From assembly GCF_006345805.1 (NCBI RefSeq), contig NW_021824252.1, forward strand, positions 1 to 19,433: a stretch of 19,433 nt of DNA, given 5' to 3'. The stretch is from Octopus sinensis. Taxonomy: Eukaryota. The position numbers and the translations under genes are program-made. Under the pieces are notes generated by a model that saw only the letters and a list, made by a program, of their open reading frames with translations, was not told where the DNA came from and searched no databases. This document shows positions 7,926 to 10,490 of the stretch, piece after piece (the first letter of the stretch is position 1; each line of letters starts with the position of its first letter).

Positions 7926-8109
7926 TATATATATATATATATATATATATTACATACATATATATATAACTTATAAATAAGGGAAAAAAAAAAATTTTAA
8001 TGCCAAATATGCCGAAAATTGGAGATATTGTCCATTACCATATAATTTATCACAATACGCACGCTACTCGAAAAAAAAAGCCGACAGAAATTTCTAAAAA
8101 ATTCCATTA

Positions 8110-8177
8110 TTACCATATCGGACCGATTTCAGGGTTAGTTCGTAAGAACCCTCCTTCGTCAGTGATAAATGTGGCAA
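8110..8177 (-). ncRNA. Type I hammerhead ribozyme (mirror copy, one G shorter in stem II)
   Basis: Minus strand: TTGCCA CATT TATCA CTGACGA AGGAGGGTTCTTACGAACTAACCCT GAAA TCGG TC CGATA TGGTAA. Confidence 0.7.
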
Positions 8178-8203
8178 AGAAATAAAGTATTTCATTTATT
8201 TCT

Positions 8204-8272
8204 TTACCACATTTATCACTGACGAAGGGAGGGTTCTTACGAACTAACCCTGAAATCGGTCCGATATGGTAA
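8204..8272 (+). ncRNA. Type I hammerhead ribozyme, minimal stem III
   Basis: CTGACGA 8219-8225. Stem II AGGG/CCCT plus GTTC/GAAC. GAAA 8252-8255, near-palindromic TCGG, cleavage triplet GTC 8259-8261. Stem I TATC/GATA plus TTACCA/TGGTAA with a CATT bulge, and an A.C mismatch next to the core. Confidence 0.8.
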
Positions 8273-8701
8273 TAATGGAATTTTTTAGAAATTTCTGTCG
8301 GCTTTTTTTTTCGAGTAGCGTGCGTATTGTGATAAATTATATGGTAATGGACAATATGTCCAATTTTCGGCATATTTGGCACTAGAAATTTTTTCGTTTG
8401 CTCTTATTTATAAGTTGTTTATAATTTTAACCGTTAAAGGTATTTTTTAATATGCTGGCCATTGATAAAATTTTTTTTTTTCGAAATATTTATATATAAA
8501 TATTTTAAAATATATATATATTTTAATATATATAATATATATACGACAGGCTTCTTTCAGTTTCTGTCTACCACATCCATTCACAAGGCTTTGGTCGGCC
8601 CGAGGCTATAATAAAAGACACTTAACCAATGTGCCATGCAATGGGACTGAGCCCAAAACCATGTGGTTGGGAAGCAAGCTTCTTACCACACAGCCACACC
8701 T

Positions 8702-10108: not shown

Positions 10109-10199
<91 letters not shown>
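10088..10199. repeat. Long near-perfect (TA)n
   Basis: Directly visible; further (TA)n tracts at 10399-10599 and 10757-10825. Confidence 0.97.
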
Positions 10200-10202
<3 letters not shown>

Positions 10203-10398
10203 GGTCCCGGGTTGATTCGGGTTTAACCACAGTAAATAAGGTACTCAATACATAGCAGAGTAAAATTAATTTATTATATAGAAGGAGCTTCTACAGGACT
10301 AGAACTGTTTCATTCAAGAGAAATCTTCAGGAAGCCCTGAAGATTTCTCTTGAATGAAACAGTTCTAGTCCTGTAGAAGCTCCTTCTATATAATAAAT
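10200..10398 (-). mobile_element. Short fold-back element with perfect 63-bp arms (10269-10331 / 10336-10398) and a hammerhead; Penelope pLTR-like
   Basis: Arms are exact reverse complements, loop AAGC. On the minus strand the hammerhead is followed by AATAAA (10270-10275) and a ~70-bp tail running into (TA)n. Confidence 0.85.
10285..10337 (-). ncRNA. Complete type I hammerhead ribozyme
   Basis: Minus strand: GGGCTTC CTGAAGA TTTC TCTT GAAT GAAACAG TTCTAGTC CTGTA GAAGCTC. Stem I is 7 bp (one GU), stem II TTC/GAA (U.U at its base), stem III ACAG/CTGT, GUA cleavage site between 10292 and 10291. Confidence 0.85.
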
Positions 10399-10490
10399 AT
10401 ATATATATATATATATATAATATATATATATATATAAATATATCTATTTCTTTTATTCTTTTATATATATATATATATATATTTCTTTAT

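What the first reader, a model, noticed from the sequence alone, without database searches (positions are those of the whole stretch)
10200..10398. Perfect 63-bp-arm hairpin whose turning point lies inside stem I of a complete hammerhead
The minus strand gives a complete hammerhead (7-bp stem I, CUGAAGA, GAAA, 4-bp stem III, GUA site; U.U at the base of stem II), followed by AATAAA and a tail into (TA)n. The inverted copy starts 1 nt before CTGAAGA, so it has the core but lacks the 5' strand of stem I. Zero mismatches between the arms suggest a recent event or conversion. A read-through transcript would sequester the ribozyme in a perfect duplex.
Basis: partly seen in the sequence, partly recalled or inferred. 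Interest (0 to 1): 0.75.

Follow-up and report, generated by a model that had tools for sequence, protein, structure and literature searches.

The report
Head-to-head Penelope-like retroelement stub with hammerhead
The perfect 63-bp hairpin is one of about 400 near-identical head-to-head stubs of a Penelope-like retrotransposon sitting in (TA)n repeats, it was likely made during integration rather than by a local inversion, and its hammerhead motif is the family's own, predicted but untested, ribozyme.

Summary
The arms are 10269-10331 and 10336-10398, 63 nt, 100% complementary, with a 4-nt loop. The minus strand carries every hammerhead core nucleotide.

It is not a one-off inversion. The unit is a repeat family in a 2.7-Gb genome: 1,468 exact 3' ends, 401 palindromes with the same centre region, and 11 with exactly this junction.

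Longer copies run upstream into a reverse transcriptase plus GIY-YIG endonuclease ORF, so this is a Penelope-like element (PLE). The window copy is only the first ~136 nt of the PLE leader. It lies in (TA)n, with an inverted partial copy and a one-sided 69-nt tail, which are published PLE insertion signatures.

The turning point lies where inverted arms stop family-wide, 29 nt downstream of a TATAAAT box. That is likely the transcript's 5' end.

The hammerhead motif sits 138 nt upstream of the ORF's ATG. A relaxed descriptor hit 1 in 36 Mb simulated. Shared variants fall only at N7 and loop 2. Against it, stem II is 3 bp plus U·U, no Rfam model matches, and no cleavage footprint was found.

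Verdict: a new member of a known kind. Cleavage is untested.

The parts
10114..10199 (.). (TA)n microsatellite flanking the 3' end of the direct copy (target DNA)
   Evidence: Sequence. Of the 1,489 exact 22-nt 3' ends found, 1,468 are followed by ATAT. The other 21 are followed by a base other than A, and 20 of those 21 still run into (TA)n.
10200..10335 (-). Direct copy: the first ~136 nt of the PLE leader, from GCUUCC (second base of the parent's AGCUUCC) to ...GGGACCUAC, the family's constant 3' end (start site A)
   Evidence: In L092 the same sequence continues CUAC-AUAU-CCUAGCACACCC, then 46 nt to the ATG of the RT-EN ORF. 48 exact copies of that continuation exist.
10200..10268 (-). 69-nt one-sided 'tail': the segment between the two cDNA start sites, present only in the direct copy
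   Evidence: Inverted arms of the family end in UAUAUAAUAAAU (all 13 inverted copies among 30 sampled). The PLE 'tail' is described as the sequence between two RT start sites in PMC11167929.
10285..10337 (-). Hammerhead motif: stem I 10337-10331/10291-10285, CUGAAGA 10330-10324, stem II+loop 10323-10312, GAAA 10311-10308, stem III+loop 10308-10293, predicted cut 10292|10291
   Evidence: Variation pattern. No Rfam match.
10332..10335 (.). 4-nt loop of the palindrome (AAGC on +, GCUU on -). These are the bases of the direct copy that the inverted copy lacks
   Evidence: This junction type occurs at 11 loci, out of 401 loci with the same centre region.
10336..10398 (+). Inverted partial copy: starts at CCUGAAGA (base 6 of the parent leader) and ends at ...AAUAAAU (start site B). 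It has the hammerhead core but no 5' strand of stem I and no tail
10399..10437 (.). (TA)n-rich flank on the other side of the insertion
   Evidence: Sequence.
7961..8495 (.). Second, unrelated head-to-head repeat: left copy 7961-8186 (-), right copy 8195-8495 (+). Each carries a hammerhead-like motif (8162-8116 on -, 8219-8266 on +) with a longer stem II
   Evidence: The family has 3,184 first-look candidates; the 39 scored full-length matches elsewhere in the genome are 92-96% alike, and the inverted partners share one outer end.

Best explanation
The locus is a dead, leader-only insertion of a Penelope-like retrotransposon (PLE) in a (TA)n microsatellite, and its palindrome was likely made during integration, not by a later inversion.

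Shown:
- The 136-nt direct copy is the 5' leader of a family whose longer copies continue into an RT + GIY-YIG endonuclease ORF.
- The family has about 1,500 exact 3' ends, all at ...GGGACCUAC next to (TA)n.
- About a quarter of them carry an inverted partial copy, head-to-head.

Inferred mechanism:
- The PLE enzyme nicks both strands of the (TA)n target.
- cDNA synthesis is primed where TA-repeat DNA can pair with the RNA: at CUAC-AUAU (site A) for the direct copy and at UAUAUAAUAAAU (site B) for the inverted copy.
- Both cDNAs run to the 5' end of the RNA. That end lies at AGCUUCC, 29 nt after a TATAAAT box, and is probably the transcription start.
- The two ends are joined there, or one cDNA folds back on itself.

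The hammerhead motif is the family's own PLE-type ribozyme motif at the very start of the leader. It is predicted to cut after GUA, 138 nt upstream of the ATG. Cleaved RNA evidently is not the usual template.
For: Family and termini:
- 40 scored copies, including the window's own, are 97-100% alike.
- 1,468 exact 3' ends against 0 in the control.
- In an unbiased sample of 30 loci: 15 long copies, 2 simple 5'-truncated copies, 13 with an inverted arm.

PLE identity:
- ORF P0001 has LYRDDG, FLDV, SNHP, CNCx5Cx5C and VY..YIG..R..H motifs.
- It aligns with 780-937 aa homologues at E 3e-82 to 9e-36.
- Its nearest Atlas clusters carry RVT_1 + GIY-YIG.
- L092 shows pLTR, TATAAAT, AGCUUC-HHR, 92 nt, CUAC, AUAU, 46 nt, ATG MLTRIDLD..., aligned to the homologues' N-termini.

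Junctions:
- 401 palindrome centres. Of the 50 listed, 24 are the perfect CAGGAAGCUUCCUG, 11 are one base shorter and 15 are assorted.
- No inverted arm extends 5' of AGCU.
- The outer ends vary by a few bases inside the TA-rich patch.

Literature:
- PLE insertions are 5'-truncated, often with an adjacent inverted 5'-truncated copy and a one-sided tail. (TA)n is the reported preferred target of the Naiad PLE clade, and HHRs are typically in pLTRs of canonical PLEs (passages of PMC8557442).
- A PLE protein cleaves and extends both DNA strands, starts RT internally at two nearby sites, and its HHR is not needed for insertion (main text of PMC11167929).

Hammerhead:
- The descriptor gives 1 hit in 36 Mb simulated.
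- Shared variants inside the motif occur only at N7 (27/110) and loop 2 (11/116, 20/116, 8/119).
- Head-to-head tandem arrays of 245-249 and 420-423 nt units each hold the motif.
Against: PLE identity:
- Pfam gives only sub-threshold RVT_1 and GIY-YIG hits, and only in homologues.
- A profile search of solved structures found nothing.
- The PLE call therefore rests on motifs read by eye, homologues, Atlas neighbours and architecture.

Transcription start: it is inferred from the TATA box and the arm limits. No RNA 5'-end data were available, because the runs are contigs only and RNA status is a guess.

Mechanism: it is not settled. Among shorter palindromes about half, by my reading of the 50 listed, are symmetric, which fits fold-back or centre deletion, and half are asymmetric, which fits two independent cDNAs.

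Hammerhead:
- Stem II is only 3 bp plus a U.U where G10.1-C11.1 is usual.
- The MFE of the parent motif (-8.7 kcal/mol, z = +0.3) forms stems I and III but not stem II.
- No Rfam hammerhead model scores at E<=10.
- 5' ends or junctions at the predicted cut are not enriched. About 2-4 of the 50 listed short palindromes turn there. Of the 30 sites read (46 in all) with a base other than G after GUA, 4 are true junctions and only 1-2 could mark a cleaved end.

This locus: no independent contig bridges this locus's own centre.
Confidence: 0.82

Rival explanations
1. One reading: a single recent local inversion-duplication or gene conversion at this locus happened to break inside stem I of a hammerhead.
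For: The arms are 100% identical.
Against: - 401 loci have the same centre region, 11 have the identical junction, and the flanks differ.
- The junction types vary, with at least 14 types among 50 listed loci.
- Inverted arms share one outer end in all 13 inverted copies of the unbiased sample.
Confidence: 0.02
2. Assembly or sequencing artefact: chimeric fold-back long reads create false palindromes on a small unplaced contig.
For: - The window is a whole 19.4-kb unplaced contig.
- No Logan contig bridges this exact centre.
Against: - The same structure sits on chromosome-sized contigs at hundreds of places, with diverse junctions.
- An independent run (X16) holds many contigs with joints that are mostly symmetric about the same centre.
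- The structure is an expected PLE signature (PMC8557442).
Confidence: 0.04
3. The hammerhead is only a look-alike: a chance or decayed motif in the PLE leader that does not self-cleave. The rest of the explanation stands.
For: - No Rfam match.
- Weak stem II with U.U, and a fold no better than shuffles.
- No excess of ends at the predicted cut.
- PLE hammerheads are reported to cleave poorly in vitro (passages of PMC4209133).
Against: - All core bases are present, and chance gives about 1 hit per 36 Mb.
- It lies in the pLTR/leader, where PLE hammerheads are known to lie (PMC8557442, PMC11167929).
- Subfamily variants spare the core and the stems.
- It is kept in the tandem arrays.
- A second PLE-like family in the window has its own motif.
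Confidence: 0.33
4. A palindromic non-autonomous master element (a hairpin SINE or MITE-like foldback) amplified as such, so the palindrome was copied, not remade, at each locus.
For: 24 of 50 listed junctions are identical, and the outer ends are nearly uniform.
Against: - The copies lack the TATA box, so they carry no promoter of their own.
- The junctions differ between loci in small insertions and deletions.
- Outer ends extend by different numbers of parental bases (L010, L018, L022).
- The structure is asymmetric, with a 69-nt tail on one side only and no terminal inverted repeats at the outer ends.
Confidence: 0.08

Closest known systems
Penelope-like elements with C-terminal GIY-YIG endonuclease (canonical EN+ PLEs; PMC8557442, PMC11167929)
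   Same: - RT + GIY-YIG ORF.
- Leader/pLTR with a hammerhead motif upstream of the ORF.
- 5'-truncated insertions with an adjacent inverted 5'-truncated copy.
- A one-sided tail, partial tandems, and an AT-rich or (TA)n target.
- cDNA start site next to an AC-rich hairpin (CUAG-CACACC-CUAG, read).
   Different: - The tail is 69 nt, against the reported 30-40 bp.
- The main cDNA start lies 46 nt upstream of the ATG, not 111-118 nt inside the ORF. One tandem array does end about 109 nt into the ORF.
[quoted passage not shown]
- The clade within PLEs was not determined.
PLE 'minimal' type-I hammerheads (Cervera and de la Pena 2014, PMC4209133)
   Same: - Type I topology with an open stem I of about 6 bp.
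- Location in the flanking repeat.
- No loop-loop contacts evident.
- High copy number and near-identical copies.
   Different: - Published min-HHRs have a long helix II (6-8 bp) and little or no helix III.
- Here helix II is 3 bp plus U.U, and helix III is 4 bp with an 8-nt loop containing CUAG.
Animal non-LTR retrozymes (PMC7229834 by listing and abstract; bioRxiv 10.64898/2026.07.22.740005 by abstract and outline)
   Same: The family also forms tandem arrays of 245-249 and 420-423 nt units, each with the hammerhead motif. This fits the claim that retrozymes derive from PLE pLTRs.
   Different: - The window copy is a single head-to-head stub, not a tandem array.
- Circular RNA was not testable.
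- The array units end at PLE start sites, not at the ribozyme cut.
Twin-priming 5' inversions of mammalian L1 (recalled: Ostertag and Kazazian 2001, not read here)
   Same: - A 5'-truncated direct part plus an inverted upstream part.
- Internal priming by the second target strand at a microhomology patch.
- Inversion-plus-deletion forms exist (L036, L048, L057).
   Different: - Here the two parts usually overlap completely, giving a true palindrome.
- The enzyme is a GIY-YIG PLE protein that nicks both strands.

Membership tests
Hammerhead ribozyme (type I) | Conserved core C3 U4 G5 A6 N7 G8 A9 ... G12 A13 A14 ... A15.1-U16.1 H17 | tested here: met
   CUGAAGA 10330-10324, GAAA 10311-10308, A10308-U10293, A10292. 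The core definition is recalled knowledge and agrees with PMC4209133.
Hammerhead ribozyme (type I) | Three helices around the core, with a stable helix II (usually G10.1-C11.1) | tested here: inconclusive
   Stem I is 6 bp in the parent and 7 bp here. Stem III is 4 bp. Stem II is only 3 bp plus U.U at 10.1/11.1. The MFE fold forms stems I and III but not II, z = +0.3.
Hammerhead ribozyme (type I) | Match to curated covariance models (Rfam hammerhead families) | tested here: not met
   No hammerhead hit at gathering score over the window, nor at E<=10 in 221-nt and 65-nt stretches.
Hammerhead ribozyme (type I) | Variation across relatives spares the core and keeps the pairs | tested here: met
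   Over 134 copies, shared variants inside the motif occur only at N7 (27/110) and loop 2 (11/116, 20/116, 8/119). Core and stem positions are at most 4.1%, apart from the first base after the cut (21/123), where 30 of the sampled loci had been picked for not having G. No compensatory pair changes are available, so this is weak support. Part of the sample was conditioned on an exact stem III.
Hammerhead ribozyme (type I) | Site-specific self-cleavage after H17 | not testable with these tools
   Genomic footprints were sought and not found: about 2-4 of 50 listed short palindromes turn at the cut. Of the 30 sites read (46 in all) with a base other than G after GUA, 4 are true junctions and only 1-2 could mark a cleaved end.
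Penelope-like element (EN+) | Single ORF with a PLE-type reverse transcriptase and a GIY-YIG endonuclease | tested here: met
   - P0001 motifs and alignment A1.
- Homologues at E down to 3e-82.
- Atlas neighbours with RVT_1 + GIY-YIG.
- A 652-aa open frame in L087 and the N-terminus in L092.
- Pfam hits are below cut-off only.
Penelope-like element (EN+) | 5'-truncated insertions, often with an adjacent inverted 5'-truncated copy and partial tandems (pLTR) | tested here: met
   - 13 of 30 sampled copies carry an inverted arm.
- 401 + 81 palindromic loci.
- A 4.4-kb head-to-head pair in L084+L032.
- A tandem dimer in L035 and tandem arrays.
Penelope-like element (EN+) | One-sided 'tail' between two internal RT start sites | tested here: met
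   69 nt (10200-10268) are present only in the direct copy. Inverted arms end at the second site. The length differs from the 30-40 bp reported.
Penelope-like element (EN+) | Hammerhead motif in the flanking repeat or leader, upstream of or at the ORF start | tested here: met
   The predicted cut lies 92 + 46 = 138 nt upstream of the ATG in L092.
Non-LTR retrozyme | Tandem repeats of a few hundred nt, each with a type-I hammerhead, expressed as circular RNA | tested here: inconclusive
   Arrays exist elsewhere in the genome (L147, L148), but the window copy is not tandem. Circular RNA could not be tested.
microRNA precursor (Rfam sub-threshold hits) | Score at or above the family's gathering threshold | tested here: not met
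   The best hit is MIR9486 at 80.5 bits against 100. All such hits merely fit a long perfect hairpin.
MITE / foldback DNA transposon | Terminal inverted repeats at both outer ends, and no RNA-type 5' truncation series | tested here: not met
   The outer ends differ (GUAGGUCCC... against ...AAUAAAU), there is a one-sided tail, and there is a 5'-truncation series with a constant 3' end.

The most novel reading that the evidence does not exclude
The several hundred leader-only, head-to-head stubs are not just debris. Each is a ready-made perfect hairpin gene covering the PLE's own first 63-66 nt, including its hammerhead. Read-through transcripts from any of about 400 loci would give long perfect dsRNA. 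That dsRNA could feed small-RNA silencing or heavy A-to-I editing directed at the leader of active copies, so the element's own integration mechanism would breed its repressors.

A second bold reading: the hammerhead sits at +1 of the mRNA, so cleavage would take off the cap and switch an RNA from message to non-template.
Probability: 0.12. Interest if true: 0.7.

Novelty: new member of a known kind. Interest (0 to 1): 0.4.

Why it matters
The integration mechanism of Penelope-like elements is still open. One in vitro study reports that both DNA strands are cut and extended and that reverse transcription starts internally at two sites.

This family supplies a large natural set of footprints of those steps in an invertebrate-type genome:
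- about 1,500 constant 3' ends in (TA)n
- a second start site 69 nt upstream
- about 480 head-to-head junctions that pile up at one base, 29 nt after a TATA box

That makes three things directly testable: the transcription start, the role of UA microhomology in priming, and the way the two cDNAs are joined.

It also adds an unusual hammerhead variant (U.U at 10.1/11.1, a 4-bp helix III) that curated models miss. And it warns that perfect hairpins in such genomes are often PLE stubs, not microRNA genes or inversions.

Tried and rejected
- Rfam: whole window at gathering score and three short stretches at E<=10. There was no hammerhead or other ribozyme hit, only generic miRNA-hairpin scores below threshold.
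- Pfam on 12 ORFs from 10 kb upstream of two long copies and on P0001: nothing usable.
- Profile of alignment A1 against solved structures: only a chance GFP hit.
- Earlier findings of this scan near the locus: none.
- The look-up of sequencing runs: no RNA holder listed. All runs are Logan contigs and RNA status is a guess.
- Read laying on X1, X7, X16 and X17: short unitigs. None bridges this locus's own centre, and nothing can be said on RNA ends or expression.
- tRNA-derived SINE on the + strand, suggested by GGGUUGAUUCGGG resembling a tRNA T-arm: dropped. The truncation series fixes the sense strand as minus, and the copies continue into a PLE ORF.
- HDV-like or other ribozyme, or a 3' splice site (UAG|CUUCC), as the cause of the discrete 5' end: no model match, and the branch-like UUAAC lies too close to the AG. 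The TATA box at -29 is the better fit, but this is an inference.
- Footprints of hammerhead cleavage: one tandem junction exactly at GUA| (L035/L111) and a few palindromes turning there, with no excess over neighbouring positions.
- A pure snap-back model and a pure twin-priming model each fail to explain all copies.

Full report
OBSERVATION

The palindrome is exactly as described. The arms are 10269-10331 and 10336-10398, 63 nt, 100% complementary, with 4 nt between them.

On the minus strand I read the following hammerhead elements:
- stem I 10337-10331 with 10291-10285
- CUGAAGA 10330-10324
- a weak stem II (U.U, U-A, U-A, C-G, loop UCUU) at 10323-10312
- GAAA 10311-10308
- stem III ACAG/CUGU with an 8-nt loop
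- GUA, with the predicted cut between 10292 and 10291

A descriptor of my own requires stem I of at least 5 bp, stem II of at least 3 bp with one mismatch allowed at its base, stem III of at least 3 bp, and the full core. It finds this motif and gives 0 hits in 6 Mb plus 1 hit in 30 Mb of simulated sequence of local composition. The motif is therefore not expected by chance in a 19-kb window.

No Rfam hammerhead model scores, neither at gathering threshold nor at E<=10 in stretches of 221 and 65 nt. The many miRNA hits are below threshold and merely fit a long hairpin.

IT IS A REPEAT FAMILY, NOT A LOCAL EVENT

The window is a whole small contig of a 2.7-Gb assembly.

- The 141 nt from the turning point to the (TA)n gave 40 scored full-length matches, including the window's own, at 97-100% identity. 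Many of them have an inverted partner beside them.
- The exact 26-nt 3' end plus ATAT occurs 1,468 times, against 0 for the control.
- Of 21 further exact ends followed by a base other than A, 20 still run into (TA)n.

I took the first 30 such ends along contig C1 as an unbiased sample:
- 15 continue upstream without inversion.
- 2 are simply 5'-truncated.
- 13 carry an inverted arm. Two of these are a local duplicate.

All 13 inverted arms end outwards in the same TA-rich patch, UAUAUAAUAAAU. This holds even where the flank is not (TA)n (L056). The exact end varies by a few parental bases (L010, L018 and L022).

The constant end ...GGGACCUAC and the truncation series fix the sense strand as the window's minus strand.

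WHAT THE FAMILY IS

Long copies extend at least 1.4 kb upstream. One locus (L084+L032) is a head-to-head pair with arms of about 4.4 kb.

Its sense frame, P0001 (445 aa), has these motifs:
- LYRDDG (RT motif C), FLDV and SNHP
- a CNCx5Cx5C linker
- VY..YIG..R..H, as in GIY-YIG nucleases

P0001 has homologues of 780-937 aa at E 3e-82 to 9e-36. They share these blocks (alignment A1).

Pfam gives only sub-threshold RVT_1 and GIY-YIG hits in two homologues and nothing for P0001 itself. The nearest ESM Atlas clusters carry RVT_1 + HTH_animal + GIY-YIG. An RT followed by a C-terminal GIY-YIG nuclease is the hallmark of EN+ Penelope-like elements (PMC8557442, passages).

Locus L092 shows the full arrangement on one strand:
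- repeat body
- TATAAAT, then 29 nt
- AGCUUC-CUGAAGA...GUA|GAAGCU, then 92 nt from the cut to ...GGGACCUAC
- AUAU-CCUAGCACACCCUAG, with 46 nt from CUAC to the ATG
- ATG MLTRIDLDTSLKNITIPP..., which aligns with the N-termini of the homologues

That read-through junction occurs 48 times exactly.

So the constant 3' end of the insertions is an internal site of the transcript, 46 nt before the ORF. The window copy is only the leader.

HOW THIS MATCHES PUBLISHED PLE BIOLOGY

Craig et al. (PMC8557442, passages read) describe PLE insertions as follows:
- They are highly 5'-truncated, often in partial tandems.
- They often have an inverted 5'-truncated copy immediately adjacent.
- They have a 30-40 bp tail at one end only.
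- They report (TA)n as the preferred target of the Naiad clade.
- Hammerheads typically lie in the pLTRs of canonical PLEs.

Frangieh et al. (PMC11167929, main text read) report for a purified anole PLE protein:
- It cleaves and extends both DNA strands.
- Reverse transcription starts internally at two adjacent sites next to an AC-rich stem-loop, and the tail is the sequence between them.
- The hammerhead cuts 26 nt after the start codon, needs protein to cleave, and is not needed for insertion.
- No RNA-seq reads end at the cut.

The window shows the same set of features:
- a (TA)n target
- a direct copy ending at site A
- an inverted copy ending at site B
- a 69-nt one-sided tail between the two sites (10200-10268)
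- a hammerhead motif in the leader
- an AC-rich hairpin right after site A

Two things differ here. The tail is longer. Both start sites carry UA-repeat sequence (CUAC-AUAU and UAUAUAAU) that can pair with a TA-repeat primer. I infer that this pairing sets both the start sites and the target bias.

THE TURNING POINT

A pattern spanning the centre finds 401 loci. Of the 50 loci listed:
- 24 have the perfect, spacer-less CAGGAAGCUUCCUG.
- 11 are one base shorter.
- 15 have small insertions or changes.

The window's own type, in which the direct copy starts at GCUUCC and the inverted copy at CCUGAAG, occurs at 11 loci.

No inverted arm extends 5' of AGCU, although the long copies continue there. 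That base lies 29 nt downstream of a conserved TATAAAT. I therefore infer that it is the transcription start, and that the stubs arise when cDNA started at the leader's own site A runs only about 137 nt to the RNA's 5' end. Two run-off cDNAs ending ...GGAAGCT-3' could pair through the self-complementary AGCT, which would give the commonest junction.

A further 81 loci turn nearer to the tail. By my reading of the 50 listed, about half are symmetric and about half are asymmetric. Inversion-plus-deletion forms also exist (L036, L048, L057). A run of the same organism holds contigs with joints mostly symmetric about the same centre (X16).

The data therefore do not decide between three routes:
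- two independently primed cDNAs
- fold-back of one cDNA
- later centre deletions

IS THE HAMMERHEAD REAL?

For:
- The core is complete.
- Chance expectation is low.
- The motif lies where PLE hammerheads lie.
- Across 134 copies, the only shared variants inside the motif are at N7 (A to U, 27/110) and in loop 2 (11/116, 20/116, 8/119). Core and stems stay at 4.1% or less. The one exception, the first base after the cut (21/123), reflects how 30 of the sampled loci were chosen.
- Two head-to-head tandem arrays (units of 245-249 nt and 420-423 nt) keep the motif in every unit, which is retrozyme-like.
- A second, unrelated head-to-head family in the window (7961-8495) has its own motif with a 4+4 bp stem II.

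Against:
- Stem II is 3 bp plus U.U.
- The parent motif's fold is no better than shuffles and lacks stem II.
- No Rfam model matches.
- Neither 5' ends nor junctions pile up at the predicted cut.
- The single tandem junction exactly at GUA| (L035) stands alone.
- Published PLE hammerheads also cleave poorly alone (PMC4209133, passages).

I put the chance that this is a true hammerhead descendant at about two in three. The chance that the isolated monomer cleaves well is lower.

A read-through RNA does fold into the perfect 63-bp duplex (-119 kcal/mol, z = -20).

The AAUAAA is part of start site B. There is no A-tail, so nothing supports a poly(A) signal.

The parent's stem I is 6 bp.

LIMITS

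- RNA data were not usable.
- No independent contig bridges this locus's own centre.
- The PLE clade was not assigned.
- Supplements of the cited papers were not opened.
- I found no paper describing hammerheads in PLEs of this kind of genome in three searches. One repeat-annotation paper lists PLEs without mentioning hammerheads (PMC13282606, passages).

Noticed in passing
window 7961-8495: A second, unrelated head-to-head repeat: left copy 7961-8186 (-), right copy 8195-8495 (+). It has a hammerhead-like motif in each arm (CUGACGA, 4+4 bp stem II, GAAA, 4-bp stem III with a 3-nt loop, AUA cut). The family has 3,184 first-look candidates. Its inverted partners share one outer end at query position 229 and have variable inner ends.
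   Followed up: partly
L147 (G000:C16:42874700-42877900) and L148 (G000:C9:87420100-87422700): Head-to-head tandem arrays of the same family. There are 7.6 + 5.4 units of 245-249 nt and 2.5 + 3.3 units of 420-423 nt. Each unit runs from the TATA box through the hammerhead and start site to about 35 or about 109 nt into the ORF, which is retrozyme-like.
   Followed up: partly
L035 / L111 (G000:C1, about 1599711): A tandem dimer whose unit junction lies exactly at the predicted hammerhead cut (…CCUGUA joined to a (U6A)n stretch). It was the only such case among the 30 loci read of the 46 found.
   Followed up: yes
L084+L032 (G000:C3:117545300-117565100): Two copies of about 4.4 kb lie head-to-head. 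Both are truncated inside the RT domain, about 150 nt apart. There are about 3 kb of internally repetitive non-coding sequence between the ORF stop and the hammerhead.
   Followed up: partly
window 10200-10230 (+ strand): GGUCCCGGGUUGAUUCGGG resembles a tRNA T-arm / box B. I judge it a coincidence, because the family's sense strand is the other one.
   Followed up: partly
P0011: One homologue of the RT-EN ORF is filed in a public database as a 'PH domain-containing protein' with unrelated Pfam domains. It is likely a gene model that fuses a host gene with a PLE fragment.
   Followed up: no
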